From NCBI GenBank assembly GCA_041657665.1, contig JBBABN010000001.1, positions 2,355-66,354 on the forward strand: DNA of 64,000 bases. The letters are read 5' to 3'. Source of the stretch: Minisyncoccota bacterium. Its GTDB lineage: Bacteria; Patescibacteriota; Minisyncoccia; Phycocordibacterales; Phycocordibacteraceae. A program made the position numbers and the translations under genes. This document shows positions 1,862 through 31,104 of this stretch, piece after piece (positions within the stretch are counted from its first letter, which is position 1; the number at the start of each line of letters is the position of its first letter). Below the pieces are notes generated by a model. It saw nothing but the letters and a program-made list of their open reading frames with translations, had not been told where the DNA came from and did no database searches.

Positions 1862-1893
1862 GCGAATCAGCAGATTCGCTCTTGGAGTAACTT

Positions 1894-2613
1894 ATGCTAA
1901 ATCAAATGATCGAGATTCACGATTTACAAAAAGAATATATAGAAGAAGAGACACCAACTCGCGCTCTGCGCGGAGTAACACTCTCGATAAATAAAGGCGA
2001 ATTTGTCTCCATTATGGGACCATCAGGGAGTGGTAAATCCACACTTCTACAAATACTCAGTTTCCTCGACCGACCAACCGGTGGATCCTATACCTTCCAA
2101 GGGAAGCGTATCGACGATATGAATGATCAAGAACTTGCACATGTCCGCAACACAGATATGGGTTTCATATTCCAATCATTTAACCTTCTTTCTCGGTTAA
2201 CCGTATATGACAATGTAGAGATTCCCCTCCTTTATTCTGATATCTTACCTGCGAAACGCCGCACACTTGTTGAAGAAGCAGTCCGATCTGTCGGACTCGC
2301 CGACAAACTACATACTGAAGCAGGAAAACTCTCGGGCGGCCAGAAACAGCGCGTCGCTATAGCACGAGCACTCGTAACCGAGCCGAATGTCATCTTCGCA
2401 GATGAACCGACCGGAAATCTCGACTCGGTGTCTGGCCTTCAGATTATGGAAATACTCGAATCGCTTCATGATCGTGGTCGTACGATCATATTAGTAACGC
2501 ATGAAACACAGACCGCCGAATTTGCTAATCGTATTATTAGAATGAAAGACGGTTCAATAGAGAGTGATACACCAATTACCGCCAATCGTGTCCGTCACGG
2601 ATCACTGAAATAA
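1894..2613 (+). CDS. ABC transporter ATP-binding protein (MacB/LolD-like)
   Basis: Walker [13 protein letters not shown] signature [15 protein letters not shown] and Walker B IFADEPT are all present. Confidence 0.9.
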
Positions 2614-2614
2614 T

Positions 2615-3865
2615 ATGTTGGTACGAGATGCTTTCAAGACCGCCACACGTTCTCTCACACATGGGAAAATGCGTTCAATTCTCACAATGCTCGGTATCGT
2701 TATTGGCATCGCCTCAGTCATCATTCTGATGTCAATTGGCCAATCAGCACAAAACTTAATCCTAGGACAAGTACAAAGTGTTGGATCTAATCTCATCATC
2801 ATTGCCCCCGGTGCACCAAGTGGGAGCGGATTCTCTCCTCCTGCGTCTTCACAGGGCATCGTTATTACCAGTTTGAAACAAGCTGACGCTGATTCTCTCT
2901 CACGCGAGCCGTCCATACACGCAGTGGCATCACTCGTGAGCGGACAAGCAGAAGTAGTGCAAGGAAATACCAACAAAACAGTGAGTTACCAAGGAGTATC
3001 GGCCGATATGTTTTCAGTGCGAAATCTTACTCTTAGTAAAGGATATCCTTTCACTAAGGGAGATGTTGATTCTGCAAATCATGTTGCAATTATAGGACCC
3101 GATCTCGCAACGAAACTCTTCGGGTCCTATGTTGATCCACTCAATAAAACAATACGATTAAAGAATATTTCTTTTCGTATCGTCGGAGTTCTTAGCAAGG
3201 GAGGAACAGGAATGGGTGGCGTTGATCAAGGAAATATTGTCATTGTTCCTATCACTGTTGCGCAGAAACAACTGCTTGGCGTTAATCATTTCAGTACAAT
3301 TCTCGTCGAGGCGGACGCCCAGTACGATATTAATTTCGTAAAATCACGTATCACATTCTCATTACGTCAGAATCACGGTATATCTGATCCGACAAAAGAT
3401 GACTTTAGTATTATGACGCAGGCCGATCTTCTTTCTATTGTAGGAAATATCACCTCAATCCTTACACTCTTCTTAGCAGCAATCGCTTCTATCTCACTCG
3501 TCGTTGGTGGCATTGGAATTATGAACATAATGTTGGTCTCAGTTACTGAACGCACACGAGAGATCGGACTACGCAAAGCGGTTGGTGCGACTGACACTGA
3601 TATCTTGCAACAATTTCTTATCGAGTCGGTTTTACTCACCTTTGCGGGCGGCCTGATAGGCATTATGTTCGGTGCGCTCGTCGTCGGAGCCGTCTATTTC
3701 GGTATCACCATTTTCAACCCAGAGCTCGGCTGGACCTTCGCCTTCCCTCTCTCGGCAGTTATCCTCGGACTCACAGTGTCTGGCATCGCCGGCATTGTCT
3801 TCGGTATTTATCCAGCACGCCAAGCAGGGCGAAAAAATCCTATCGACGCATTGCGTTACGAATAA
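2615..3865 (+). CDS. ABC transporter permease (FtsX/MacB-type)
   Basis: 416 aa with an N-terminal TM, a large periplasmic loop and a C-terminal 3-TM FtsX-like region. Its start abuts the upstream ATPase gene (2613/2615). Confidence 0.8.
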   Translation: MLVRDAFKTATRSLTHGKMRSILTMLGIVIGIASVIILMSIGQSAQNLILGQVQSVGSNLIIIAPGAPSGSGFSPPASSQGIVITSLKQADADSLSREPSIHAVASLVSGQAEVVQGNTNKTVSYQGVSADMFSVRNLTLSKGYPFTKGDVDSANHVAIIGPDLATKLFGSYVDPLNKTIRLKNISFRIVGVLSKGGTGMGGVDQGNIVIVPITVAQKQLLGVNHFSTILVEADAQYDINFVKSRITFSLRQNHGISDPTKDDFSIMTQADLLSIVGNITSILTLFLAAIASISLVVGGIGIMNIMLVSVTERTREIGLRKAVGATDTDILQQFLIESVLLTFAGGLIGIMFGALVVGAVYFGITIFNPELGWTFAFPLSAVILGLTVSGIAGIVFGIYPARQAGRKNPIDALRYE

Positions 3866-4708: not shown

Positions 4709-7700
4709 TCAACGGGCTGAGTTAATCGCCGCTCTAGTAAGCGGCCCGAAATATCCCACAGCCGGTGTGATGTTGTTCGCCTTCTGGAATCTGATAAGAG
4801 CGGCCTTGGTCAATGCACCAAATTTGGTTGTTTCATTTCCTGGTGAACCTGGACCGCTCTCCGCAAGAATGAAGCCATGGGTGTTAAGGAACTGTTGGAG
4901 TTTTTGTACATCAGTACCGGTGGTGTTTAGTTTCAGATCGCGAGCAAACCCGGTTTGTGAGCTTGTCGAACCCGTCGAGGGGGTGAAAGATGAAGTGGAA
5001 ACTGTTGAAGTTGTAATCGTTTCTCCCAAGAGAGCGGCTTGTACCTTCGCTATAGTATTGGCATCAACGCCGAAGGAAGCGAGGACAGCGAGAATGGAAG
5101 ATACTTGTACAGAAGAAAGGGGGCTTGCCCCGCGAAGCTCTCCTTCCGAGGAGAGCGAAGTGGGGGTAGTAGTGGCAACAACAGGAGTGACGCGGGGATA
5201 GGTGTGAGAGAACCCACAACCTATAGTGAAGGTCTGGGTGTTGGAGTTGGTACTGTTGTCATTGTTGTCGAGGGCCTTGATGTACCACGAGTGTGTATTA
5301 GAGCAAGAGATAGAGGTTGGAACAGAGACCGAGGTGTCGGAAGTGCTCCCGATAAGGGTGTCATCGATATAGAGCTCATAGGGAGCAAGACCTGATTCAG
5401 TGTCAGAAGAAGCGGTCCAAGAGAGGGTGCCTCCTTTCGAGATGCCGTCATTGTTAGCTGGGGCGGTTAGAGAGAAAGATGCGGGAGCGGTCGTGTCTTT
5501 GGTGAGGGCGAAGGTGTGGGTTGAATACCCGCCGACATAGGTGAAGGTGAGGGAGCCGTCAGCGTCGGACTTGCAGATGCCGTTGGTACATTGGCTGTTG
5601 TTGGTGATGGCGGTGGTAGAGGCAGAGGAGTCGAGGTTGAATGTGTAGTATGTGGAGGGGGTGAGATCGCCGATGGTATAGACGGTGCTGGTGGCGTGGG
5701 TGTTAAAGGCGGCGATACTGGAGGTTGCGGTCCACTGTTTGTTCTTGGTGCCGGATGTGAGCCAAGAATCAATGGTGATGTCCATATATTGCGAAGTGGA
5801 GGCGGTATAGAAGCCGTCCACGGGAGTGACGGAGAAGTTGGCAGCTGGAATGGTGGTGGCAGTGGTGGTGGCGACGAGAGCGCGATACTTGTTGTCGGAA
5901 TAGATGCGGATGGAACCGCTCGTTGGTACTGGAGTTGTTCCCACTGTGTATGGCGGTTGATATTCGTATGCGCCGATGTCTGGGGTGCCGTATATTGAGT
6001 TGCCGGCATAGTCGGTGGTTAATGAGACGTCAGTACCAGCATCAATCGCCGGAGAAAGATACGAGAGTTGAAAATCGGTGACAGCAGTATAATTACCTGT
6101 AGCATTTACAAAAAGAGGATCGGAATTATTACTGTTTAGTTCGTTGGCAGAATGGTAGGTTGCCCATGATGTGTTATTGCTATTATCATCTGTGTTATAA
6201 AATTTACTATCATCAAAAGGTTTGTATAAATTATAGTCAAATGTTGTATAAGATGAATGTCTGTTTAATATCTCTCGCGGCTTACCGTTTCCACCTAAAA
6301 TACCATTCTGTACTGTTAAATTACCGCTAGGTTTGTTGTAATAATTATTACCTCTAATCGATGCAGTTATTACTGTACTTTCTTTAAAAAGATCTCCAAC
6401 AGCATATCCATTTGACCAACCAATAGAATTATAAAAATAATTCGTGCCGTCGGAAACATCTCCAAATCCCTCATTATAATTATGATGAGCTATACAATAA
6501 TAACATTTTATATTTGTCGTAGAATCATGAGGCAAAAAACCCCCGCCATCAGATGTTTCGTTAACTGTTCCATTATAAGAGGCTTCACTATTCAAATATA
6601 TTATATCACTGGCTGATGCCGAAGAAAGGAATCCAATATTATTATTATTATTAGCCATACAATTATTATAAGTTATATTATACGATGTGCCTCTCGCAAC
6701 AAACCCGTTCATAGAATTATGATTCGCCGAAACACTATTATATGTAATGTCGTGGGTCGCTCCCATTAATTCAAAAGCACCATAGGCAGTAGAGTTGCTC
6801 ATACTGCTATCGTCTACCACAATATTTGATGAATCGGTAAAACTAAATCCTGCGCCGGATGATCCTGTGATATTACTAATGGTACCAGTAGCAACATTAT
6901 TTAAAGCAATTCCTGTTAATGTCGAATTAGTTATTGTTAAATTTAAGCCGGTATTTATAGAAATTAATGTCGATGTCGAATTGGTTATTGTTAAATTTGC
7001 AGCATTACTTATAAGTAAGTCGCCAGTATTAATAACTGAATTTTGTAAAGTTATATTATCATTGCCCGTACCAGTAAAACTCATAGCTTTTTTTGTTGGT
7101 CCGCTATTTGTTAGCACCACATTATCAATAACTATATTATTCAAAATACTGTCGGACCATATATTATATCCATAGCCCCCCATATCGCTGGTAATATTAT
7201 TAAATTTAATATTAGAGCCTGCCCCTATGAGTATTCCTATAGTCGAAACTGTTGTCCCTGTATATTGGCAAGAAAATCCTTGAACTATAATATTAGATTT
7301 GCCGTTGGTACTTATTAGATAGCCAGAAGCAACAACAATCGCAGGAGTTTCGTTCGGCACATTCGCATAGGTAATTTCAGTGTCAACGCCGGAACCTCCC
7401 GACGGAAGGATTAAAATTTCTGTGTAATTTCCACCTTGTGAACTGAAAAGAATTTGATCACCATCTCCAAAAGTTGCGAGTTTTACTTGAGCCATGTTCA
7501 AAGAGGTACCGACTGCGTTAGGGCTTGTTGCATTCGCTTTATTAGCCGCGGTCACCGTCCCATCTGCCCGCACATAATACGTCGTTGCACTCGCCTGCCC
7601 TATTCCAATAAACAAAAAACTTCCTGAAAGAATTAGAAAGAATGCAATGAAGCGAACATTTTTGTTGAAAAAATTGGGGCTATTTACTCTCTCTCTCTCT

Positions 7701-7843: not shown

Positions 7844-9775
7844 TTAAATAATTTCTTTATCCTGTGAAGCTTCAGCGAAGCAGGACGCGCTATTGGTCTC
7901 ATCAAATACCATGAGAGATGAATCGATATCAGCGAGGAATGACGATGGCTCAGCGAGAGAATCACTCCCGTAGATCTTTCGAATGCGCGCGAGGGTTAAG
8001 AAAAGGCGTGATTTTGCGCGCGTCATCGCCACATAAAAGAGTCGTCGCTCTTCTTCATCATCTCTCTTGGTATCATTCCCCATAGCACTGTGCGGAAAGA
8101 GCCCTTCTTCCATACCACTCACGAATACCGTGTCGAATTCAAGACCTTTTTATGCATGGACCGTCATCAGAGTCACGCCCTTCTTATCATTCTGATCGAG
8201 TTCGTCCTGATCACTCGCGAGAGCGGCATCCGCGAGAAATGCCGAAATGCCTTCTTTCCCAATAGCCGCATCATGCCGCGCAGCGACCGAAGCGAGTTCT
8301 TCTATATTTTCAAATCGTTCCCGATCTTCATCATTCCCCTCTTCGACTAATGCGCGACGTAACCCGCTTTTTTCTATAACAAGCTTCACGAATTCAGATG
8401 GTGCGAGCGTTTCTGCGCCCTGTGCAAGCTCTGCTATAACACCTTCAAAAGTTTCAACCTTCGCGATTTCGCCCGCACGAAGCTCGCTGCGCTTCCCTGC
8501 TGCGAGCTTACCAAGTGTTACCTTACCGATACCGCGCGACGGCGAAGCTGCTGCACGAAGTTTGTCGACTTCTCTCGAAGGATCGAGCGCGAGTCGCATC
8601 CACGCGAGCGCATCTTTCACTTCTTTTCTCGCGAAGAAATGTGTCCCGAGCAATTTATACGGCACACCAGCTTTCAATAATCCTTCTTCGAGCGCTCGCG
8701 ACTGGAAGTTAGTACGAAAAAGTAGTGCGATTTCTTCTGGCTTCGCGCCATTCTTCATTAATTCTCGGATCTTCAGCGCGATCCAACGTGCCTCATCTTC
8801 AGCATTAATCGCGAAGTGCACGACAATTGGCTCACCCGCAGGATGTTCGGTCGTCGAATATCGTTCTTTACGGTTTTTATTTTTCTCGATGACGGCGTTT
8901 GCCGCATCAACTAGATTTTTTGTCGAACGATAATTACGTTCGAGAATAATCGTCTGTGCTGCAGAATATTTTTTCTCAAAATTTAAAATGTTTTCCATCT
9001 TTGCGCCGCGCCATCCGTAAATCGCTTGATCACCATCACCAACAACAAAAAGATTGTTGTGTTTTTCAGAGAGAATGCGAGCGAGTCGCTCCTGTAATCC
9101 ATTTGTATCTTGATATTCATCGATACTAATAGAGCTCCAACGAGCTTGTGCAAGCGCACGGATATCAGCATGTTCTTCGAGTAGCTGTACCGGAAGCGAA
9201 ATAAGATCATCGAAGTCGAGCGACTTCTCTTCTTTCAGAGTTTTCTCATAGCGAAGCCATACTTCTGCGGTAATACGAGAACCGAAACTTCCACGACCCT
9301 GTTTTTCATAGAATTCACTCGCGCGCATTCCCTCACCTTTCGCACGCGAGATGCGGCCCATAATTGCACGTGGAGAAAATTCCTTCGATTCCACATCAAG
9401 CGCTTTCAATGCGGTAGCAATTACTCTTTCTGAATCGGCACGATCATAGATACTAAAGAATTTCGAGACGCCTATCTCACTTCCATAACTCTCCAGAATC
9501 TCGCGCCCAAGCCCGTGGAAAGTAGCAATAAAAGGAAGGGTCCCATCATCCTCGAGCATAGTGCGGACTCGTGCACGCATCTCGCGTGCCGCTTTATTAG
9601 TGAAGGTGACCGCGAGAATCTGATTCGCCGGCACCCCAGAGCGAATCAGATGATAAATTCGCGTCGTGAGCACGCGCGTTTTCCCGCTTCCAGCACCCGC
9701 AAGAACCAAGACCGGACCATCGATAGCGAGTACTGCTCGTTTCTGAGCTTCATTCAATCCTTCAAGGTATTTCAC
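7844..9775 (-). pseudogene. uvrD: UvrD/PcrA-family DNA helicase interrupted by an in-frame TAA (fragments 8150..9775 and 7844..8149)
   Basis: The N-terminal fragment has Walker A AGAGSGKTRVLT. The reading frame continues in the same frame across a TAA at 8150-8152 as ...[29 protein letters not shown]..., which is the conserved UvrD motif V/VI region (consensus ...TLHSAKGLEF...). Confidence 0.8.
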
Positions 9776-9884
9776 TTACGGACTATAGCGCAAAATCGTT
9801 CTCCACAGGTCTTTTTTGGGCTCATTGACTCCTCAACTGTCTCAGATATACTAGCCCTATCGGCAGTACGAAAGTATTCAAGAA

Positions 9885-11006
9885 ATGGCTTATATACGTG
9901 AGTATGTAAGCTATTTTTGTATTCGAAAGACCCACCGCATTCCTCGTTTTCCTATTAAATTCAACCCACATCTTTTCATAGTAGGTTCTGCGATAATCGC
10001 GTCCGCCCTTATGCTCGTACCGAGCCATGCGGATGCTTTTTGGCCTTTTTCTTCTAATGCAGATGCTGCAACGAATACTATTATTCCAAGAGCTTCGACT
10101 CCAGTACTTATTGCCGCTCTGAATAGCAATCCAAACATTACCGCCTCTGTAGAGCTGGCTACTTCTGGTGGATCAGCTCTTGTTTCTCACAGTGGTCCTT
10201 CTGGTACCTCAGCCAGTATCGCGAACATACCGCCGCCTGACCAAATATCAGTCTATGTAGTCCGCCCAGGAGATACCCTCTCAGATATTGCTGACATGTT
10301 TAATGTTTCGGTAAACACTATTATTTGGGCAAACAATCTTTCTAGCGTTCGAGACATACATCAGGGCGACACGCTCATCATTCTGCCAGTTTCAGGTACT
10401 GAACGCATCATAGTTAAAGGCGACACCCTAAAATCACTCGCAAAGAAATACAATGCTGACGCGAATGAAATCGCACAATACAACGGTCTCGATCCGCTCG
10501 AACCGCTTACTATAGGATCCACCATTATCATTCCTGGCGGTGAAATCGGCACACCAGCTCCAAGCGCGTCGCCTTCAAAACCTTCTCGCACAACATCTAC
10601 TTCTAGTAACGGTTCACTGCAGACAGGTTATTACAGAAATCCTGTACCGGGAGGAGTTATCTCTCAAGGCATTCACGGAAAGAATGCTGTGGATATAGCT
10701 GCAGCACGCGGCACACCAATCCACGCAGCCGCTGGCGGAACGGTTATCATCTCGCGTAACAATGGTGGGTGGAATGGCGGATACGGCAACTATGTCGTTA
10801 TAACTCACAGTAACGGCTCCCAGACACTCTATGCTCACATGACCAATGCGATTGTTTCAACAGGACAGTCGGTTTCCTCAGGACAAATCATCGGCTATGT
10901 CGGCTCGACCGGACAATCGACCGGCTCACATCTCCACTTCGAAGTTCGTAGTGCATCCAACCCTCTCCGTAATTGTTCAGTTGGCAGAGTGTGCTCTCCT
11001 AAATAA
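9885..11006 (+). CDS. LysM-domain M23 family metallopeptidase (peptidoglycan hydrolase)
   Basis: Two LysM repeats (YVVRPGDTLSDIADMF..., IIVKGDTLKSLAKKYN...) and a C-terminal M23 motif GSTGQSTGSHLHFEVR. N-terminal hydrophobic signal. The start codon is uncertain. Confidence 0.85.
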   Translation: MAYIREYVSYFCIRKTHRIPRFPIKFNPHLFIVGSAIIASALMLVPSHADAFWPFSSNADAATNTIIPRASTPVLIAALNSNPNITASVELATSGGSALVSHSGPSGTSASIANIPPPDQISVYVVRPGDTLSDIADMFNVSVNTIIWANNLSSVRDIHQGDTLIILPVSGTERIIVKGDTLKSLAKKYNADANEIAQYNGLDPLEPLTIGSTIIIPGGEIGTPAPSASPSKPSRTTSTSSNGSLQTGYYRNPVPGGVISQGIHGKNAVDIAAARGTPIHAAAGGTVIISRNNGGWNGGYGNYVVITHSNGSQTLYAHMTNAIVSTGQSVSSGQIIGYVGSTGQSTGSHLHFEVRSASNPLRNCSVGRVCSPK

Positions 11007-19466: not shown

Positions 19467-19540
19467 GCCCCGATGGTGAAATGGATATCACGGCTGACTT
19501 CGGATCAGCTATTCCGGGTTCGAATCCTGGTCAGGGCACC
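19467..19540 (+). tRNA. tRNA-Arg (anticodon TCG)
   Basis: Manual cloverleaf: acceptor GCCCCGA/TCAGGGC (one mismatch), D stem GTGA/TCAC, anticodon stem GCTGA/TCAGC with loop CTTCGGA (TCG), T arm CCGGG-TTCGAAT-CCTGG. Confidence 0.8.
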
Positions 19541-19599
19541 GCTAAGAAAAGTTGGTCACACTAGAAATGAATATGCACGGCATGCTACTATGCCGAGAG

Positions 19600-19670
19600 G
19601 CGGGCATGGTTTAGTGGTAGAACACGTCCTTGCCAAGGACGAGACGGGAGTCCGATTCTCCCTGCCCGCA
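19600..19670 (+). tRNA. tRNA-Gly (anticodon GCC)
   Basis: Acceptor GCGGGCA/TGCCCGC, anticodon stem CGTCC/GGACG with loop TTGCCAA (GCC), T arm GGGAG-TCCGATT-CTCCC. Confidence 0.85.
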
Positions 19671-19855
19671 CTACTTCGCTCTGTTCAGAAACAGAGCTTC
19701 GCAGTGCACAGCACTATAGGAATGTGACTAAAAAGACGACTTTTACTCCTGTGGATAAGTAGGTGCATACTGGGGATAAAGGACAGTTGTCTATAATGGA
19801 TAAACTAGTGCGGTCTTAGAGTATACTGAGGAAATAAGCCATATTTATAAAAGCC

Positions 19856-20272
19856 GTGGACATTTCATCTAAGACCACTAAAGAGATAGGAAATCTGGGG
19901 GAAAGCGTCGCCTGCGAGTATCTCCGGCGACACGGATTCTCTATTCGCGATCGCAATATTGCACGAAAGACAGGAGAACTCGATGTTATCGCAGAGAAGG
20001 AAGATACCCTGCATTTTGTTGAAGTTAAGACTGTGCTGGCTGACGAATTTCCCCACTCCGCTGAAGCTACTCGGGGCAAGCCAGGTGATTATGATGAATA
20101 CGATCCTTCCCTCAACTTACACGAAGCGAAGGTGCGGAAAGTCGCACGGACCGGCGAATGGTATGTCCTAGAGAAAGGATGGGAAGGGGACTGGCAAGTA
20201 GACGGGTGTCTCGTCTGGCTCCGCCGTCGAGACGGTATGGCACGAGTGAGCTACCTGCCACAAATTGTATAA
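19856..20272 (+). CDS. yraN: YraN/UPF0102 family predicted endonuclease
   Basis: GNLGESVACEYLRRHGFSIRDRN...GELDVIA...LHFVEVKT matches the YraN restriction-endonuclease-like core. Confidence 0.7.
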   Translation: MDISSKTTKEIGNLGESVACEYLRRHGFSIRDRNIARKTGELDVIAEKEDTLHFVEVKTVLADEFPHSAEATRGKPGDYDEYDPSLNLHEAKVRKVARTGEWYVLEKGWEGDWQVDGCLVWLRRRDGMARVSYLPQIV

Positions 20273-20292
20273 ATCTGCTAGGATGCGAGAAA

Positions 20293-20363
20293 CGGGCCGG
20301 AGTATGCCGGTAGTACACCTGCTTTGGGAGCAGGCAGACCGAGTTCAATTCTCGGCGGCCCGA
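20293..20363 (+). tRNA. tRNA-Pro (anticodon TGG)
   Basis: Acceptor CGGGCCG/CGGCCCG, anticodon stem CCTGC/GCAGG with loop TTTGGGA (TGG), T arm CCGAG-TTCAATT-CTCGG. Confidence 0.8.
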
Positions 20364-20366
20364 TGA

Positions 20367-21440
20367 TTACGGTAATTGAGTAGTTATAATCGACTCTAGA
20401 GCAGTCATTTTGGGTGCAAAACTAGCGATAGAAGAAATAGGCGATTGAACAAGAAGAATATCCAAAGGTTCTTTTGTTTCACTTGCATATTCAGAACGCA
20501 CGTAGGAGGCCGTTATGGCGCTCAAGGAGCGTGTATTAATCGCACCAGAGATTGTGCTCGTCGTAATAGTGCCGACGAGTTTTCCTTCTGCGTCTACAAT
20601 GCCTCCGCCAGAAGAACCCTCTTGTGCGATAGCCGAACCGCCAAAAGAGAGTACGTCGATCGTATTCTCTGCAAAAGTAAAAACATCTTTCACTGAGCCG
20701 AATACCATAGAAGGGAAGAGTGAGGACACTATCTGGCTTGGATCAAGAAACTGTGCCCCATACGAGGCAATAGCTACTGGCGTATCAGGAAGCGGCGGCT
20801 GTGTAGCGAGTGGGATATAAGGGAAAGAGAGGGGGAGAGGACTTGTCGTCGCGCTCGAAGAGACCGCGAGGAGCGCAAAATCGTATTCACCAGTTCCGTT
20901 TGGCGATGTCTCACTGAGGACTTTTGGATTCGCCTGAAGCCATTTCTCTGAGATATATATGAGTTTTGCGTTATAGCGGTCTGTTGCCGGAACTCCAGAG
21001 CGAATAGTGCAGGAGATACCCTTATCAGCGAGAAGAAAATATTGCCCGACATGCGCATTGGTGAGGATAATGCCTTTCGCATCGATAAGAACACCTGTTG
21101 CCGAGATTGAATGGAGAGGACTTCCTTGTGGGGCGTAACAAATAATATTTACCAGAGCATCGACAAGCGTCGAAGCTGCGACACGGAGCGCTGTATTTTT
21201 TTCAACTGAAGAGGGTGATAGTGCAGGATTACTAGCTGATGTTGGAATAGCAGAAGAAACAACTTTTGGAGCAGCGCTTTCATCAGAAGGAATTGCTGAT
21301 ACTGGTTTTGTAGAAAAATCGGCAGGAATGGTAGCAGTTATAGGAGAATTAACCGTAGGAGTACGCCCAAGAAAAGAAGCAATAAAAACTCCACACACAA
21401 ACCCAAGAGAGATGCCAATAAATGAAACGAATCGTCGCAT
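20367..21440 (-). CDS. Secreted trypsin-like serine protease (S1 family, HtrA-like without an obvious PDZ)
   Basis: Signal/TM at the N-terminus. Catalytic-triad context ILTNAHV (His) and ...GSSGGGIVDAEGKLVGTIT (the Ser motif, cf. GDSGGP). Confidence 0.7.
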   Translation of the reverse strand: MRRFVSFIGISLGFVCGVFIASFLGRTPTVNSPITATIPADFSTKPVSAIPSDESAAPKVVSSAIPTSASNPALSPSSVEKNTALRVAASTLVDALVNIICYAPQGSPLHSISATGVLIDAKGIILTNAHVGQYFLLADKGISCTIRSGVPATDRYNAKLIYISEKWLQANPKVLSETSPNGTGEYDFALLAVSSSATTSPLPLSFPYIPLATQPPLPDTPVAIASYGAQFLDPSQIVSSLFPSMVFGSVKDVFTFAENTIDVLSFGGSAIAQEGSSGGGIVDAEGKLVGTITTSTISGAINTRSLSAITASYVRSEYASETKEPLDILLVQSPISSIASFAPKMTALESIITTQLP

Positions 21441-21482
21441 GTTTATACGCTAGCGCAAAAATGGTATTCTCACCACAGGAAC

Positions 21483-21553
21483 GCGGGATTAGTTTAATGG
21501 TAGAACTACAGATTTCCAATCTGTTAGTGGGAGTTCGATTCTCCCATCCCGCA
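21483..21553 (+). tRNA. tRNA-Gly (anticodon TCC)
   Basis: Acceptor GCGGGAT/ATCCCGC, anticodon stem ACAGA/TCTGT with loop TTTCCAA (TCC), T arm GGGAG-TTCGATT-CTCCC. Confidence 0.85.
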
Positions 21554-28152: not shown

Positions 28153-28322
28153 ATGGAATATGTATGTCGCACGTTTTTAATATGTCTAACACCTATTCTA
28201 ACATTTCTAATAAAAATGCCCGCATCGCGGACATTTCAGATGATGTAAAGATACCAGATTCTTTTTTATGCGTCAACACAAAAAGAAAAGAGCCACCTAA
28301 TTGGTGACTCTATGCCCTTACG

Positions 28323-28382
28323 GTCTCGCCTCGACTTATTTTATTCGTCCGAGATCCCCGCTTACGCCTTGGGTTAGGCGGC
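28323..28382 (-). repeat. R element copy 1 (partial, ~60 nt) at the 3' end of small ORF 28395..28673
   Basis: GTCTCGCCTCGACTTATTTTATTCGTCCGAGATCCCCGCTTACGCCTTGGGTTAGGCGG is near-identical to the 5' two-thirds of copy 2 (28730..28815). Confidence 0.8.
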
Positions 28383-28394
28383 TGTGTGAAGATG

Positions 28395-28673
28395 TTAATT
28401 GCTCTTCTTCCTTGAGAGAAAGAGAAAGACAATTAAACCAACCAAGAAGTATACCGCCATGGACAAGTGGAGCGAAAGAGCCTCCGACCATGGCCATACC
28501 ATCCCAAACATCAGGACGGTGCAGTTTGTTCCTTGAATGTGCACCTTCATGTACAACGCCCCCACGAGAAAAATGCAGAAAGAGTAGAGAGCTACGAAAA
28601 TACTGGAGACCAGCACTTTCACGAAGATCTCTAATCCTTTGACAAACTTCTCGGCAGCTTTTTCAGATGTCAT
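28395..28673 (-). CDS. Small hydrophobic membrane protein (92 aa), unknown function. First downstream member of the small-ORF array.
   Basis: ORF with an AAGGAG RBS ~8 nt before its ATG (reverse complement of 28674-28690). Two predicted TM helices. Confidence 0.45.
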   Translation of the reverse strand: MTSEKAAEKFVKGLEIFVKVLVSSIFVALYSFCIFLVGALYMKVHIQGTNCTVLMFGMVWPWSEALSLHLSMAVYFLVGLIVFLFLSRKKSN

Positions 28674-28729
28674 TTCACTTCTCCTTTTTTATTGTGAGAG
28701 AACATTTTTTCTGTTTTCATTTCCCTGAG

Positions 28730-28815
28730 GTCTCGCCTCGGCTTATTTTATTCGTCCGAGATCCCCGCTCACGCCTTGGGTTAGGCGGGTTTCGCTACCC
28801 CGGCTCGAGCGAGAC
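28730..28815 (-). repeat. R element copy 2 (86 nt), a structured repeat overlapping the stop of ORF 28795..29097
   Basis: Terminal 7-bp pairing GTCTCGC/GCGAGAC encloses two hairpins (CTCGG..CCGAG and CCCGC..GCGGG). The ORF C-terminus LEPG* is encoded by the conserved GGCTCGAGC segment. Confidence 0.8.
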
Positions 28816-29097
28816 GACCTTTGATCTGGAAATCAAAAGCCGATCGGCCCCACAGCCTATGCGGCGGCCGTCGATCCACTCCGAGTGAGAGTGCATCACC
28901 CAGAGCACATTTCCATGGCTCTGAATCTCTACCACTCTTGGATCATTTGGATCGAGCTGGAGGGTCTTCACCTCGTCCTCATAGACATCAATGTCCCCTC
29001 TCCAGTACTTCCAAGTGCTCGGCCAGCGAGTCCAATTAATCTTTCTTTCTGTCCCATCCGTAAAACGGATGAACATTGGTCTTCCTGGACAATCCAT
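28795..29097 (-). CDS. Hypothetical 100-aa protein, middle ORF of the array
   Basis: Perfect SD AAGGAG 8 nt upstream of the ATG at 29097. The C-terminus is encoded inside R copy 2. No recognisable domain. Confidence 0.55.
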   Translation of the reverse strand: MDCPGRPMFIRFTDGTERKINWTRWPSTWKYWRGDIDVYEDEVKTLQLDPNDPRVVEIQSHGNVLWVMHSHSEWIDGRRIGCGADRLLISRSKVVSLEPG

Positions 29098-29123
29098 TTT
29101 ATTACTCCTTCAAAAAAGAACAT

Positions 29124-29212
29124 TCTGTTTCGTCCTGTGCGATTTGGCATTTCCAAACTGCCGGACTTGGACTTTTCAGTCCTCATCAGTCCCGACCCAA
29201 TCGGGAGACAGA
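29124..29212 (-). ncRNA. Hammerhead-ribozyme-like element A (type III topology, atypical expanded stem II)
   Basis: Minus-strand sense: CUCUGUC^UCCCGA-UUGGG-UCGGGA CUGAUGA GGACUG...[~45-nt insert]...CACAGGAC GAAAC AGA. Present are the GUC cleavage triplet, a 6-bp stem I hairpin, the CUGAUGA and GAAA core, and a 5-bp stem III (UCUGU/ACAGA). Stem II would need tandem G-A pairs plus a large insertion. Confidence 0.55.
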
Positions 29213-29333
29213 GAGAGGTTTTGTCCGGACCTCTCAAACCGAGCGTGTTCCTTCAAAGAAGGATGTCCCAATCACCTCAGATTGCCTGGGTTATGACGAA
29301 CCCGACAAACCTATGATTGCGTGATTTTCAATA

Positions 29334-29474
29334 TCAAGTCGTCATCTTGATATTCCGGATTATCCCCACGATCGAGGGGACGCCTAAGGGTGTGCGCTTA
29401 CCCAACGGAACAGGCTTATCTATTTCCATCTCTCGAGAGATAGGAACACATAACCCTGTTCCGTTTTTGTCCAT
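29334..29474 (-). CDS. Possible 46-aa ORF (MDKNGTGLCVPISREMEIDKPVPLGKRTPLGVPSIVGIIRNIKMTT) downstream of hammerhead B
   Basis: Internal ATG of track ORF 29334..29519. The upstream 45 nt of that track ORF are the hammerhead core and so unlikely to be coding. Weak RBS. Confidence 0.3.
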   Translation of the reverse strand: MDKNGTGLCVPISREMEIDKPVPLGKRTPLGVPSIVGIIRNIKMTT

Positions 29475-29494
29475 ATTTAAAAGAACAATTCTTT

Positions 29495-29546
29495 GCTGTT
29501 TCGTCCTTTTTGGACTCATCAGGGGAGAGAAATATCTCCCGACAGC
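29495..29546 (-). ncRNA. Type III hammerhead ribozyme (minimal, all core positions canonical)
   Basis: Minus-strand sense: GCUGUC^GGGAGA-UAUUUC-UCUCCC CUGAUGA GUCC-AAAAA-GGAC GAAAC AGC. Stem III GCUGU/ACAGC with A15.1-U16.1 and C17 (GUC, cleavage between + coordinates 29541/29540). Stem I 6 bp, stem II 4 bp (G10.1-C11.1). Invariant C3 U4 G5 A6 U7 G8 A9 and G12 A13 A14 are all present. Confidence 0.85.
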
Positions 29547-29696
29547 AATCCGTATCGTGGATTAGTCGAATCCCGTATTCGTTGGATTAATCGGATGGTA
29601 GTCATTATCGGCGTTGACCTTACCGTGCCAATCATTACTGACTGGCAGGTTTGCAGTTATTTCCATCACCTTACCTGCAAACCGTTTTACCCTGCG

Positions 29697-29780
29697 GTCT
29701 CGCTCCAACTTATGGATTCATTGAAGTCCCCGCTTACGCATGGGTTGAAGGCGGCTTCCGCTAAGCCATGGGCTCGAGCT
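29697..29780 (-). repeat. R element copy 3 (diverged, ~70% identity) overlapping the stop of ORF 29761..30171
   Basis: GGTCTCGCTCC...CCCCGCTTACGCATGGGTT..GGCGG...GGGCTCGAGC aligns with copies 1/2. The ORF C-terminus LEPMA* is encoded in the conserved GGCTCGAGC block. The hairpin-1 stem has a different sequence but preserves pairing (ACTT/AAGT versus CTCGG/CCGAG). Confidence 0.7.
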
Positions 29781-30171
29781 TCTTCGTCTTGAAGACGATC
29801 TTCTCGAGCACCTCGTAGTGGGAGAATTTAAGCAGGTCGCGCCCGCTCTCATCCTTCCCGACCACAATGGCCCGACCGGACTCATCACGCTCAAATTCCG
29901 CGCGAATGAGAACGGCCCCGAGGTTGCACTGCCGGTCCACCAACCTTATTAAGGTCGGGAACGGCGCCTGCGCCTCGACAGCGACGACTTTGCCATCGGT
30001 CTCGGACTCAACCTTCTGGATGAGTTCCTTGACCGAAGTGACAGCGTCGTCGCCGTAGCGGATGTCATCGGTTACGACCTTAAGGTCGCTTCCGAAGACG
30101 CCCTTCAGGAACGCCTCACGGGCGGCGTCGAGCGGATGGCGGGTGATTCTGACAAGGACTTTCATTTGCAC
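29761..30171 (-). CDS. Hypothetical 136-aa protein, first ORF of the array
   Basis: ORF starting ~120 nt downstream of the divergent promoter region 30172..30330. No recognisable motif. The C-terminus lies inside R copy 3. Confidence 0.5.
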   Translation of the reverse strand: MQMKVLVRITRHPLDAAREAFLKGVFGSDLKVVTDDIRYGDDAVTSVKELIQKVESETDGKVVAVEAQAPFPTLIRLVDRQCNLGAVLIRAEFERDESGRAIVVGKDESGRDLLKFSHYEVLEKIVFKTKKLEPMA

Positions 30172-30262
30172 TCCTTCTGCGGCCTTTGTCGCGAATAAAA
30201 GAACATTGATAACTTTTTATCAGTAGTGCTATGATAGCGCATTGGTATCGTTTGTCAAGTTT

Positions 30263-30317
30263 TTTATCATACCTTTTTATGATAAAAGCTTGACAGAAAT
30301 ATCACATAGAATATACT
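30263..30317 (+). promoter_or_regulatory. Sigma70-like promoter (TTGACA 30290-30295, 16-nt spacer, TATACT 30312-30317) preceded by the palindrome TTTTATCATA-N6-TATGATAAAA (30263..30288)
   Basis: Consensus -35/-10 hexamers 13 nt upstream of the ATG at 30331. A perfect 10-bp inverted repeat overlaps the -35 region, a likely operator (possibly for the TrmB-like product itself). Confidence 0.55.
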
Positions 30318-30330
30318 CCTTTTATCACAT

Positions 30331-31104
30331 ATGAAACAAAATCATGATAAAAAGGGGAGTGAGCGACTTCTTAAAAATCTAGAGAAGATCGGTTTAACCG
30401 AGAAAGAAGCCAGAATATATGTCTATTTGGTGGGGAGAACCATAGAAGTTGGGAGCTCCAAGATTGTTGCTGCTACTGGTTTACACGGCCAGTATGTCTA
30501 TACCGCTCTTGGGTCCCTTGAAGGTAAGGGGTTGGTAAAGCATGTCATTAAAAATAACCGTAAAAAGTGGAGTGCTAACCCTCCTGCGCGCATAGAATCG
30601 CTTATTGACGAAAAAAGAATCGTGGCAAATGAAGCACGAGACATGCTTGAAAAGATGTTCAGCCACCAGTATGAGCAAGAGTTCGAAGTGTACCAAGGCG
30701 AAGACCAATTTGCCGCGAATGAACTTCAAATAATTGAAGAGGCGGGAAAAGATAGCTTCATAGATATAATTGGGGGCGGCGGAGACAAATTTAAAGAAAC
30801 TCTTGGGGAAAGTCATGAATTTTACGATAAAAAGAGTATCGAAAAAAATATTGCGGTCAGATATATAGGAACGGGCGAGCAGCAAGATTATTTTGAAAGA
30901 GTGAAAAAGTCACGCGTGAATTTCGATTTCAGAATTATGCCGGAGTTTAACAATAGTAGTGTAAACACACTAATTTATCCTGATCAGATACAGTTTCAAA
31001 TATATGGTGATCCTGTTTTGGTATTTAAAATAAGAAATGAACAGATTGCGCGCGATTATAGAACATTTTTTGATTCCCTTTGGAATCTTTGTGGAGAACA
31101 GTAA
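30331..31104 (+). CDS. TrmB-family HTH transcriptional regulator
   Basis: N-terminus LEKIGLTEKEARIYVYLVGRT...SKIVAATGLHGQYVYTALGSLEGKGLV matches the TrmB winged-helix. It sits immediately upstream of the type IV pilus operon. Confidence 0.65.
   Translation: MKQNHDKKGSERLLKNLEKIGLTEKEARIYVYLVGRTIEVGSSKIVAATGLHGQYVYTALGSLEGKGLVKHVIKNNRKKWSANPPARIESLIDEKRIVANEARDMLEKMFSHQYEQEFEVYQGEDQFAANELQIIEEAGKDSFIDIIGGGGDKFKETLGESHEFYDKKSIEKNIAVRYIGTGEQQDYFERVKKSRVNFDFRIMPEFNNSSVNTLIYPDQIQFQIYGDPVLVFKIRNEQIARDYRTFFDSLWNLCGEQ

What the first reader, a model, noticed from the sequence alone, without database searches (positions are those of the whole stretch)
28322..30330. Modular array upstream of nusA: [hammerhead leader]-[small unknown ORF]-[structured R element], repeated three times
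Read 5' to 3' on the minus strand, the locus starts with a divergent promoter region (30172..30330). It then runs ORF-136 + R3, a spacer, hammerhead B, a possible 46-aa ORF, hammerhead A, ORF-100 + R2, a degenerate leader (GAAAACAGAAAAAAUGUUCUC...AAGGAG, core lost), and ORF-92 (membrane) + R1. After that come a 170-nt spacer and nusA. In most bacteria rimP precedes nusA; here a ribozyme-punctuated cassette array occupies that position. Each ORF's last codons (LEPG*, LEPMA*) are embedded in the conserved GGCTCGAGC part of an R element. Each downstream ORF has its own SD. The design suggests a single transcript cut by the ribozymes into monocistronic mRNAs whose 3' ends are capped by the R structures. 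None of the ORFs has a recognisable domain. I am not aware of a described system with this organisation. It could be a small mobile or defence-like module, or an RNA-processing-based regulatory unit.
Basis: partly seen in the sequence, partly recalled or inferred. Interest (0 to 1): 0.85.

Follow-up and report, generated by a model that had tools for sequence, protein, structure and literature searches.

The report
Hammerhead-and-R-motif punctuated operon in Patescibacteria
A small operon in a candidate-phyla-radiation bacterium is divided by self-cleaving hammerhead RNAs and by a conserved, apparently undescribed folded RNA that sits just after stop codons, and the same layout recurs in related genomes.

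Summary
On the minus strand, one strong promoter (30258-30231) and one terminator (28311-28289) bracket ORF136, ORF100 and ORF92. There are three copies of a ~75-nt element R (70-73 bits with my covariance model), one canonical type III hammerhead (HH-B, above Rfam threshold) and a second hammerhead (HH-A) whose core carries a 16-nt insertion.

R is a real structured RNA. It has two hairpins, a closing helix and a pseudoknot, all supported by covariation, and it matches no Rfam 15 family. R and hammerheads recur together. 11 of 25 loci encoding ORF136 relatives carry R and/or a hammerhead in the same intergenic slots, six carry both, and the order is always ORF-stop, R, ~40 nt, hammerhead, next ORF. 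Unrelated metagenome contigs show the pairing too.

- Hammerhead-punctuated operons were described in 2011.
- The 46-aa ORF is a structured, highly conserved non-coding RNA.
- ORF100+R2 is a 421-nt indel missing from the closest relative, and ORF100 is an orphan.
- The LEP/CTCGAGCC tail is an ORF136 protein feature, not part of R.
- The nusA adjacency is incidental.

The best model is ribozyme processing of one transcript with R as a 3'-end module. R's mechanism is unproven.

The parts
30331..31104 (+). Divergently transcribed TrmB-family HTH regulator
   Evidence: Pfam TrmB E=4e-9. Homologues flank ORF136 relatives in 7 of 13 loci and also in L213 and L216. Its own promoter lies at 30290-30317.
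30231..30258 (-). Sigma-70-type promoter of the array (TTGACA-16-TATCAT)
   Evidence: Matches 11 of 12 consensus positions. TGATAA/TTATCA inverted repeats flank it.
30166..30230 (-). 5' leader of ORF136, with an AUGUUCUUUU box (about 30206-30197) and the SD GAAGGAG
   Evidence: The same box follows 9 of 15 hammerheads in related loci.
29761..30165 (-). ORF136 (134 aa from the ATG), a conserved hypothetical Patescibacteria protein with a Rossmann-like fold
29682..29757 (-). R3, a copy of the R RNA motif that starts 3 nt after the ORF136 stop codon
   Evidence: Covariance model score 69.7 bits. Its core is deleted in L001.
29549..29681 (-). Spacer with a hairpin and a promoter-like site (29631-29604)
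   Evidence: The aligned part is 93% identical to L001.
29493..29548 (-). HH-B, a canonical type III hammerhead with predicted cleavage between 29541 and 29540
   Evidence: RF00008 at 52.3 bits against a gathering score of 48.5. Stems I/II/III have 6/4/7 pairs. It is conserved in L001 (54 bits).
29215..29492 (-). Highly structured non-coding RNA between the two hammerheads, including the long hairpin 29404-29465.
   Evidence: Folding z-score is -5.5 for 29207-29540 and -7.4 for the hairpin. It is 96.4% identical to L001, against 82.6% for nusA. The ATG is lost in L001, and the hairpin has one compensatory U-A to C-G change.
29122..29214 (-). HH-A, a type III hammerhead with a 16-nt hairpin insertion (29183-29168) after CUGAUG. 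The nominal cleavage site is between 29207 and 29206.
   Evidence: 24.4 bits, E=0.03. Alignment with the orthologous hammerheads of L200, L202 and L204 shows the insertion. It is 96.8% identical to L001.
28694..29114 (-). 421-nt segment (SD + ORF100 + R2 + part of the degenerate leader) that is absent from the closest relative L001
   Evidence: BLAST and MAFFT comparison of the window with L001.
28795..29097 (-). ORF100, an orphan ORF of unproven coding status
   Evidence: Only a self hit among 5.8 billion proteins. Codon score is 0.05 bits/codon against a reference of 0.42+-0.07. Single-sequence AF2 pLDDT is 40. A good SD is present.
28715..28791 (-). R2, a copy of the R motif that starts 3 nt after the ORF100 stop codon
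   Evidence: Covariance model score 73.4 bits. It is 97% identical to R1 over 60 nt.
28674..28714 (-). Degenerate hammerhead leader (GAAAACAG...AUGUUCUC, no CUGAUGA) plus the SD of ORF92
28395..28673 (-). ORF92, a small membrane protein
   Evidence: Its only homologue is the L001 orthologue at 68% identity, with hydrophobic segments conserved. Holin and DUF5134 hits are weak and sub-threshold.
28308..28384 (-). R1, a copy of the R motif that starts 10 nt after the ORF92 stop codon
   Evidence: Covariance model score 71.6 bits. It is conserved in L001 (78.7 bits).
28289..28311 (-). Intrinsic terminator that ends the array. The nusA promoter follows at 28276-28248.
   Evidence: A 9-bp stem followed by TTTCTTTTT.

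Best explanation
The locus is one transcription unit, about 1.9 kb from the promoter at 30258 to the terminator at 28289. It consists of compositionally foreign small genes and belongs to a Patescibacteria operon family built around the ORF136 protein. That family is often paired with a divergent TrmB-like regulator and a Csx3/P-loop protein.

Two kinds of cis-acting RNA punctuate its intergenic regions.

1. Type III hammerheads sit 50-100 nt upstream of the next start codon. They cleave at their own 5' edge, so the ribozyme body stays on the downstream RNA as a structured leader with a 5'-OH end.
2. R is a ~70-nt pseudoknotted RNA that begins 2-10 nt after the upstream stop codon. After hammerhead cleavage it lies near the 3' end of the upstream RNA, which carries a 2',3'-cyclic phosphate.

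In this window HH-B should make the one secure cut. That cut separates ORF136-R3 from a second RNA made of a ~420-nt structured leader, ORF100, R2, ORF92, R1 and the terminator. HH-A has a core insertion and the third leader has decayed, so neither can be counted on to cut.

I infer that R is a 3'-end module that a conserved cellular factor recognises, or that blocks 3' decay. Its fold is probably coupled to translation termination, because a ribosome on the stop codon would cover its first helix.

Shown: the elements, their structure, and their conserved order and co-occurrence. Inferred: cleavage in vivo and everything about what R does.
For: - Transcription unit: one strong promoter and one terminator bracket the array.
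- HH-B: canonical and above the Rfam threshold.
- Hammerhead recurrence: my stem-checked scan finds type III hammerheads in 9 of 25 ORF136 loci, against 0 hits in 484 kb of reversed control sequence. Rfam gives sub-threshold RF00008 hits at the same places in the loci it was run on, L200-L205.
- R structure: across 18 sequences, 96% of cells are paired and 10 of 15 pairs change on both sides. Slid controls give 37-49% paired. The Pa-loop/3'-tail pseudoknot scores 10.6 against 8.1+-0.5 for shuffles, with 0 of 500 shuffles reaching it.
- R acts as RNA: the G-U pairs lie on the ORF-sense strand only.
- R position: it starts 2-10 nt after a stop codon in 9 of 12 cases within ORF136 operons.
- Order: where R and a hammerhead share an intergenic region, R always comes first, with 35-50 nt between them in L211, L216 (twice) and L035.
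- Selection: the non-coding parts are 96-97% identical between the window and L001, against 81-90% for the coding parts.
- Precedent: hammerheads flanking single genes were shown to cut polycistronic RNA in vitro and in vivo (PMC3088659).
Against: - There are no transcript data, so cleavage and 3'-end positions are unverified.
- HH-A's 16-nt insertion lies at the A9/G10.1 junction of the core. Core insertions impaired activity in published tests.
- A plain stabiliser would not need about 20 invariant unpaired nucleotides (UGA, GGA, CGAGA) kept across distant lineages. That degree of conservation points to a more specific role such as catalysis, ligand binding or protein binding.
- R also occurs without any hammerhead (L002, L209) and inside a phage-like tRNA array (L013), where a 3'-UTR role does not apply.
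- A promoter-like site at 29631-29604 could give HH-B its own transcript.
Confidence: 0.5

Rival explanations
1. R is itself a new class of self-cleaving ribozyme, or another catalytic RNA, that processes the transcript at or near the stop codon. On this view it acts in parallel with the hammerheads or in their place.
For: - R and hammerheads occupy the same slots in orthologous operons. Directly after ORF136 there is a hammerhead in L200, L202 and L204, but an R in L203, L209 and L215. After the Csx3 gene there is an R in L002 and L209, but a hammerhead in L203 and L215.
- R is a compact ~70-nt pseudoknot whose invariant nucleotides sit in the junctions.
- Its outline is a 5' hairpin, a 3-nt conserved linker, and a helix with a conserved internal loop closed by a variable hairpin. 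This resembles the published hatchet outline, which cleaves at its 5' edge (PMC6561176).
- Known ribozyme classes cluster near hammerheads. This last point rests on my own knowledge of Weinberg et al. 2015, which I did not read here.
Against: - No Rfam ribozyme family matches R even at E<=10 on a 101-nt query.
- Where R and a hammerhead are adjacent (L211, L216, L035), two cutters 40 nt apart would seem redundant.
- R1 sits at the end of the operon just before a terminator, where a cut serves no obvious purpose.
- There is no biochemical test.
Confidence: 0.2
2. R is a regulatory aptamer or protein-binding site, for example a k-turn-like platform or a riboswitch. On this view it controls expression of the downstream cistron, or read-through, rather than marking a 3' end.
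For: - The internal loop GGA / CGAGA, flanked by a C-stem (Pb), a 3-nt bulge and tandem G.A/A.G positions, looks like a kink-turn.
- A pseudoknot combined with a k-turn is the outline of some riboswitch aptamers (my own knowledge).
- R2 lies 35 nt upstream of the ORF92 SD, and R1 lies directly upstream of a terminator.
Against: - R is anchored to the upstream stop codon (2-10 nt), while its distance to the next start ranges from 35 to more than 200 nt.
- The downstream genes are unrelated to one another.
- The k-turn register leaves an extra unpaired G on the non-bulged strand, given that the Pc pairing is fixed by C-G to U-A covariation.
Confidence: 0.15
3. The main product is the RNA between the two hammerheads. 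Tandem ribozymes excise a 334-nt structured RNA (29540-29207) that works as a small or circular RNA, in the manner of a retrozyme or viroid-like element. On this view the ORFs and R are secondary.
For: - The inter-hammerhead RNA is the most conserved part of the locus, at 96.4% identity against 81-90% for coding sequence.
- It is strongly structured, with a folding z-score of -5.5.
- It has no conserved ORF.
- Both hammerheads share CUGUC...GAAACAG stem III strands, so a ligated circle could re-form a hammerhead.
Against: - HH-A's core insertion makes the second cut doubtful.
- No homologue of this RNA was found in any other locus.
- Perreault et al. could not detect circular or spliced products from clustered bacterial hammerheads.
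- This reading does not explain R or the conserved ORF-R-HH order elsewhere.
Confidence: 0.1
4. This is a DNA-level cassette array, integron-like or otherwise mobile, in which R is the recombination site at the end of each cassette.
For: - ORF100+R2 is a clean 421-nt presence/absence difference between two close genomes.
- R2 is 97% identical to R1 although the ORFs are unrelated.
- GC3 of the array differs from that of the host genes.
- L002 carries a large serine recombinase 2 kb away.
Against: - No integrase or recombinase ORF was noted among the ORFs read around the array. Only six of them were scanned against Pfam.
- R lacks the attC R''/R' boxes, with no GTTRRRY partner.
- Its helices use G-U pairs that would be C-A mismatches on the other strand, so the fold is selected in sense RNA.
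- The indel can be explained by recombination between repeated leader or R sequences.
Confidence: 0.04

Closest known systems
Clustered hammerhead ribozymes flanking individual genes in bacterial or prophage operons (Perreault et al. 2011, PMC3088659)
   Same: Several hammerheads lie on one strand within 2 kb and flank single small genes of varied or unknown function. The proposed role is cutting a long transcript into single-gene mRNAs, and a MarR/TrmB-type regulator is nearby.
   Different: - The host is a Patescibacteria chromosome, with no PHROGs hit for the array's ORFs and no integrase ORF noted among the ORFs read around it.
- All hammerheads are type III and many are followed by a conserved GUUCUUU box.
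- Each hammerhead is paired with a second conserved RNA, R, placed after the upstream stop codon. The 2011 paper's passages on clustered hammerheads that I read mention no such element.
- One hammerhead carries a large insertion in its core.
Hatchet self-cleaving ribozyme (outline taken from PMC6561176)
   Same: Both have a 5' hairpin, three conserved linker nucleotides, and then a helix interrupted by an internal loop that holds most of the conserved nucleotides and is closed by a variable hairpin. Both are found in the neighbourhood of other ribozymes.
   Different: There is no sequence or covariance-model match to Rfam's ribozyme families. R's loops are much smaller (3 x 5 nt). R has a pseudoknot between its hairpin loop and its 3' tail. 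Self-cleavage by R is untested.
Kink-turn (k-turn) RNA motif
   Same: A C-stem (Pb) is followed by a 3-nt bulge (CGA) and a G-A step. On the opposite strand a G-A step precedes the C-stem, and a G-C-rich helix continues beyond.
   Different: The covariation-supported register leaves one extra unpaired G at the 3n position. No partner protein is known, and folding is untested.
Retrozymes and viroid-like circular RNAs with type III hammerheads
   Same: Two type III hammerheads in direct orientation flank a structured non-coding RNA of a few hundred nucleotides.
   Different: The setting is a bacterial chromosome, with no reverse-transcription signals or repeats of the whole unit. The second ribozyme has an interrupted core, and there is no evidence of circles.

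Membership tests
Hammerhead ribozyme type III (Rfam RF00008) | Score at or above the curated gathering threshold (48.5 bits) | tested here: met
   HH-B scores 52.3 bits. HH-A does not reach the threshold: 24.4 bits, E=0.03.
Hammerhead ribozyme type III (Rfam RF00008) | Uninterrupted catalytic core CUGANGA / GAAA, an NUH cleavage triplet, three stems, and stem III open | tested here: met
   HH-B has GUC, CUGAUGA and GAAA, with stems of 6/4/7 pairs. HH-A has all the core letters and stems I and III. However, 16 nt are inserted between CUGAUG(A) and stem II relative to its orthologues, so this feature is NOT met for HH-A.
Hammerhead ribozyme type III (Rfam RF00008) | Self-cleavage activity | not testable with these tools
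   This needs in vitro transcription or end-mapping.
Hammerhead-punctuated polycistronic operon (Perreault et al. 2011) | Two or more hammerheads on the coding strand of one transcription unit, flanking individual genes | tested here: met
   There is one promoter and one terminator. HH-B and HH-A lie between ORF136 and ORF100. The same pattern occurs in L204, L211 and L216.
Hammerhead-punctuated polycistronic operon (Perreault et al. 2011) | Prophage or integrase context | tested here: not met
   The array's ORFs give no PHROGs hit. The neighbours are nusA, a PilB-like ATPase and a TrmB regulator. Only L002 has a recombinase nearby.
Any known RNA family, for R (Rfam 15, 4227 models including twister, twister-sister, pistol, hatchet, HDV-like and riboswitches) | Covariance-model match | tested here: not met
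   No family overlaps R on its own strand at E<=10 with a meaningful score, either in 2.25 kb or in a 101-nt query. There are also no matches in the other R loci.
Kink-turn | C-stem, 3-nt bulge, tandem trans sugar-Hoogsteen G.A/A.G pairs, then the NC helix in register | tested here: inconclusive
   The sequence pattern fits (GGA opposite CGA-GA). The Pc covariation (C-G to U-A at columns 47/105) forces an extra unpaired G between the G.A pairs and the NC helix.
Integron gene cassette / attC | attC with RYYYAAC...GTTRRRY boxes folded as single-stranded DNA, with a linked IntI integrase | tested here: not met
   There is no GTTRRRY partner and no integrase ORF was noted around the array. The G-U pairs are valid only in sense RNA.
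Intrinsic terminator, as an explanation of R | A GC-rich hairpin followed directly by a U tract | tested here: not met
   The scan finds one terminator on this strand, downstream of R1. None coincides with an R copy.
Retrozyme or viroid-like circular RNA | Two active hammerheads releasing a monomer that is circularised | not testable with these tools
   The geometry is present, but HH-A's core is interrupted. No RNA data are available.

The most novel reading that the evidence does not exclude
R is a new class of functional RNA, most interestingly a new self-cleaving ribozyme. A translation-coupled processing or sensor element would be the alternative. It forms a conserved two-part 'R + hammerhead' punctuation unit that defines both ends of single-gene mRNAs in ultrasmall CPR bacteria. 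It may be functionally tied to the ORF136/Csx3-P-loop proteins, which could act on the 2',3'-cyclic-phosphate and 5'-OH ends that the ribozymes create.
Probability: 0.2. Interest if true: 0.9.

Novelty: new variant of a known kind. Interest (0 to 1): 0.68.

Why it matters
Why bacteria place hammerheads between genes has been an open question since 2011. This locus belongs to a conserved, repeatable arrangement (stop codon, R, ~40 nt, hammerhead, GUUCUUU box, next gene) found across Patescibacteria lineages. That gives the question a defined system to test.

It also yields a well-supported structured RNA motif that is absent from Rfam 15. Its pseudoknot, its invariant junction nucleotides and its interchangeability with hammerheads make it a credible candidate for a new ribozyme or RNA-processing signal.

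CPR bacteria have reduced RNase and regulatory repertoires. RNA-encoded mRNA processing could be one way they organise gene expression.

Tried and rejected
- **Rfam.** Searches at gathering and at E<=10 found no family for R.
- **Exact-pattern metagenome scan for R.** Of 118 hits, most were type I-E CRISPR repeats or chance matches. About 10 independent real R copies were kept by checking Pb, Pa and the pseudoknot.
- **Viral contigs.** The R pattern gave 0 hits, then 1 real hit (L137). The hammerhead-leader pattern gave only chance hits with no hammerhead core. The system is therefore not typical of catalogued phages.
- **Phage BLAST with an R copy.** Nothing meaningful.
- **HDV-like, twister and pistol folds.** I tried mapping R onto each by hand and rejected all three. 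R has no P3/L3 equivalent, no closing P1, and the order of its pseudoknot strands differs.
- **R as attC or as a terminator.** Both rejected (see the membership tests).
- **ORF100.** It is an orphan, and its single-sequence structure model is uninformative at pLDDT 40.
- **Inter-hammerhead RNA.** No homologue in any fetched locus.
- **Literature.** Searches for hammerheads in CPR, Csx3 with hammerhead, RAGATH, and structured RNAs in Patescibacteria found nothing that describes R. The library is incomplete, so prior description cannot be excluded.

Full report
**WHAT IS THERE**

Read on the minus strand, the region runs as follows.

- A strong sigma-70-type promoter, TTGACA-16-TATCAT, lies at 30258-30231. 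It faces a second promoter for a divergent TrmB-family regulator gene at 30331-31104.
- The only intrinsic terminator on this strand lies at 28311-28289. nusA follows with its own promoter at 28276-28248.
- Between promoter and terminator, in order:
  - ORF136 (29761-30165)
  - R3 (29682-29757)
  - a 133-nt spacer
  - hammerhead HH-B (29493-29548)
  - 278 nt of non-coding RNA
  - hammerhead HH-A (29122-29214)
  - ORF100 (28795-29097)
  - R2 (28715-28791)
  - a leader that keeps GAAAACAG...AUGUUCU but has no CUGAUGA core
  - ORF92 (28395-28673)
  - R1 (28308-28384)

**THE HAMMERHEADS**

HH-B matches Rfam RF00008 at 52.3 bits, above the gathering score of 48.5. It has a GUC triplet and stems of 6, 4 and 7 pairs.

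HH-A has all the core letters plus stems I and III, but scores only 24.4 bits. I aligned it with the hammerheads that follow ORF136 relatives in L200, L202 and L204. Relative to them it carries a 16-nt hairpin, AGGACUGAAAAGUCCA (29183-29168), inserted directly after CUGAUG at the A9/G10.1 junction. Published tests found that insertions in the hammerhead core impair cleavage (PMC3088659). HH-A is therefore probably slow, conditional or inactive. It is nevertheless 96.8% identical between the window and its closest relative.

**THE R ELEMENT**

The three copies share a ~75-nt core. No Rfam 15 family matches it, even at E<=10 on a 101-nt query.

I collected further copies in two ways. An exact-pattern scan of metagenomes yielded about 10 real lineages among 118 hits, the rest being mostly CRISPR repeats. 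A covariance model then found copies free of that pattern bias in L002, L203, L209 (two), L211, L215 and L216 (two).

The fold consists of:

- a 5' hairpin, Pa
- a UGA/UAA linker
- a 4-bp helix, Pc
- an internal loop of GGA opposite CGAGA
- a 6-8-bp hairpin, Pb
- an A
- a 3' tail that pairs with the Pa loop

On 18 sequences, 96% of cells are paired, against 37-49% when the partners are slid. Ten of 15 pairs change on both sides, including a C-G to U-A change in Pc and C-G to U-A changes in Pa. The pseudoknot scores 10.6, against 8.1+-0.5 for shuffled tails, and 0 of 500 shuffles reach it.

Several helices use G-U pairs that exist only on the ORF-sense strand, so the structure is selected as RNA. 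The internal loop looks like a kink-turn, but the register fixed by covariation leaves one extra G. I therefore leave k-turn membership open.

**COMPARATIVE CONTEXT**

ORF136 is a real, conserved Patescibacteria protein. It has 83 homologue clusters. Its predicted structure is confident (pLDDT 94.5) and Rossmann-like, but has no convincing structural or sequence relative.

I examined 25 distinct loci that encode it.

- TrmB-like regulator: flanks ORF136 in at least 9 loci.
- Csx3-domain/P-loop protein: follows ORF136 in at least 9 loci.
- R: present in 8 loci.
- Type III hammerhead: present in 9 loci.
- R or hammerhead: 11 loci carry at least one.
- R and hammerhead: 6 loci carry both.

My hammerhead scan gave 0 hits in 484 kb of reversed control sequence.

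The arrangement is consistent across loci.

- L216: TrmB | ORF136 - R - HH - Csx3/P-loop - R - HH - gene.
- L211: ORF136 - R - HH - ORF - ORF - HH - ORFs.
- L203 and L215: ORF136 - R - Csx3 - HH - gene.
- L202: ORF136 - HH - Csx3.
- L209: ORF136 - R - Csx3 - R.

R starts 2-10 nt after the upstream stop codon in 9 of 12 cases. Where R and a hammerhead share a gap, R comes first and the hammerhead follows 35-50 nt later.

R also co-occurs with sub-threshold type III hammerheads on the same strand in unrelated contigs L021, L029 and L035. One R-like copy sits inside a phage-like tRNA array (L013).

A GUUCUUU box follows stem III in 9 of 15 hammerheads. It also occurs in the primary ORF136 leader.

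The finding passes that test.

**WHAT IS LINEAGE-SPECIFIC**

The closest genome is L001, Kaiserbacteria RIFOXYD1_FULL_47_14.

- It lacks a 421-nt segment, window 29114-28694, that holds ORF100 and R2.
- It lacks the R3 core through a 44-nt deletion.
- ORF100 has no homologue among 5.8 billion proteins. Its codon usage is weak and its structure model is uninformative, so its coding status is unproven.
- ORF92 has only the L001 orthologue.

The '46-aa ORF' is not a gene. Its ATG is ATA in L001. It also overlaps a 31-bp hairpin that shows one compensatory change. The RNA between the two cleavage sites (334 nt) folds with a z-score of -5.5. At 96.4% identity it is among the best-conserved parts of the locus. 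R1 plus the terminator reaches 96.4% and HH-A 96.8%. By comparison, nusA is 82.6% identical, ORF92 80.9% and ORF136 89.6%.

The GCTCGAGCC shared upstream of R2 and R3 encodes the conserved LEP C-terminus of the ORF136 family. The 5' flank of R2 therefore looks copied from the ORF136 end, while the R2 core is 97% identical to R1. I infer a history of recombination among the repeats.

GC3 of the three ORFs is 0.61-0.78, against 0.45 for nusA. The array is therefore compositionally foreign.

**HOW IT MOST LIKELY WORKS**

Shown:

- one promoter and one terminator
- one canonical hammerhead
- a covariation-supported R fold
- the conserved order of stop codon, R, hammerhead, next ORF

Established elsewhere: clustered bacterial hammerheads cut polycistronic RNAs in vitro and in E. 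coli (PMC3088659).

Inferred:

- HH-B cuts between 29541 and 29540.
- The upstream RNA is ORF136 plus R3 and ends in a 2',3'-cyclic phosphate.
- The downstream RNA begins with the hammerhead body (5'-OH), continues through the structured non-coding RNA and HH-A, and carries ORF100, R2, ORF92 and R1.
- R acts as a 3'-end module.

R's first helix begins about 7-10 nt after the stop codon, so a terminating ribosome would cover it. Its folding is therefore probably coupled to translation. This rests on my own knowledge of ribosome footprints.

I hold this model at about 0.5. R's invariant junction nucleotides and its interchangeability with hammerheads keep three other readings open: a new ribozyme (about 0.2), a regulatory aptamer or protein site (about 0.15), and an excised or circular non-coding RNA as the main product (about 0.1). 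A DNA-level cassette or attC reading is unlikely. The fold is specific to sense RNA, and there are no attC boxes and no integrase.

**COMPARISON WITH WHAT IS KNOWN, AND NOVELTY**

The array is a new variant of the hammerhead-punctuated operons described in 2011. Four things are new:

- the CPR chromosomal setting
- the tie to a conserved operon family (TrmB regulator, ORF136, Csx3/P-loop)
- the GUUCUUU box
- above all, R, a structured RNA I could not find in Rfam 15 or in the searchable literature

The closest architectural analogue to R is the hatchet ribozyme outline, but R is not a member of that family.

The link to nusA/rimP and the idea of three equivalent cassettes do not hold up.

**LIMITS**

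- There are no expression data.
- Part of the R sample was selected with an exact core pattern, so invariance of the core is partly imposed. The seven model-found copies in ORF136 loci outside the window and L001 relieve this only in part.
- The literature library is incomplete.

Noticed in passing
window about 29123-29106, 29478-29468, 30206-30197, 28700-28690; also L021 3400-3415, L029, L204, L211, L216 4578-4590 and 5874-5886: A conserved box, (A/U)(A/U)GUUCUUU, often extended to GUUCUUUGAAAG, lies 2-6 nt after stem III in 9 of 15 type III hammerheads. It also occurs in leaders without a hammerhead (the primary ORF136 leader, the degenerate leader, and L209). Its function is unknown.
   Followed up: partly
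L002 5555-6499; L005; L202 1051-1998; L203 5628-6572; L209 4627-5577; L213; L215; L216 4666-5610: ORF136 relatives are very often followed by a protein with an N-terminal Csx3 domain and a P-loop NTPase domain. The Csx3 domain is a cyclic-oligoadenylate ring-nuclease / RNA-binding fold, related to AF_1864 at E=7e-9. This two-gene pair lies in genomes with no CRISPR context in view. I wonder whether these proteins act on ribozyme-generated RNA ends.
   Followed up: partly
window 29183-29168: A 16-nt hairpin is inserted in the catalytic core of HH-A relative to the orthologous hammerheads. It is conserved in L001. It could be a disabled ribozyme or a conditionally active one.
   Followed up: partly
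L002 about 4880-4930 and 6710-6760: A 48-nt sequence, TTTCCCGAAGTTGGCGGATTGACCAACTATGTTCCCGAAAGGGCGGCC, is repeated upstream of two genes of the same operon. It is a hairpin-containing leader that replaces hammerheads there. A large serine recombinase lies at 8572-10257, next to tRNA genes.
   Followed up: no
L013 3278-3338 (-), within 1423-3475: A phage-like contig with about 10 tRNA genes and a tmRNA-like hit carries an R-like element between two tRNAs. R can therefore exist outside an mRNA 3' region.
   Followed up: no
window 29631-29604 (-): A promoter-like site, TTGGCA-16-GATAAT (10 of 12 positions), lies in the spacer upstream of HH-B and is conserved in L001. It could start a separate transcript.
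   Followed up: no
window 29700-30150 compared with its flanks: ORF136 is 58-61% G+C with GC3 of 0.78, in a region that is otherwise 35-50% G+C. ORF100 and ORF92 also have raised GC3. The array looks horizontally acquired.
   Followed up: partly
L021 2558-2719 and L029 (oriented 44-205): A 53-aa cysteine-rich peptide (CxxC-rich, 88% identical between the two contigs) precedes R in these marine-type contigs. About 450 nt of conserved structured non-coding RNA and a hammerhead follow.
   Followed up: no
window 19467-21553: A cluster of four tRNA genes on the plus strand.
   Followed up: no
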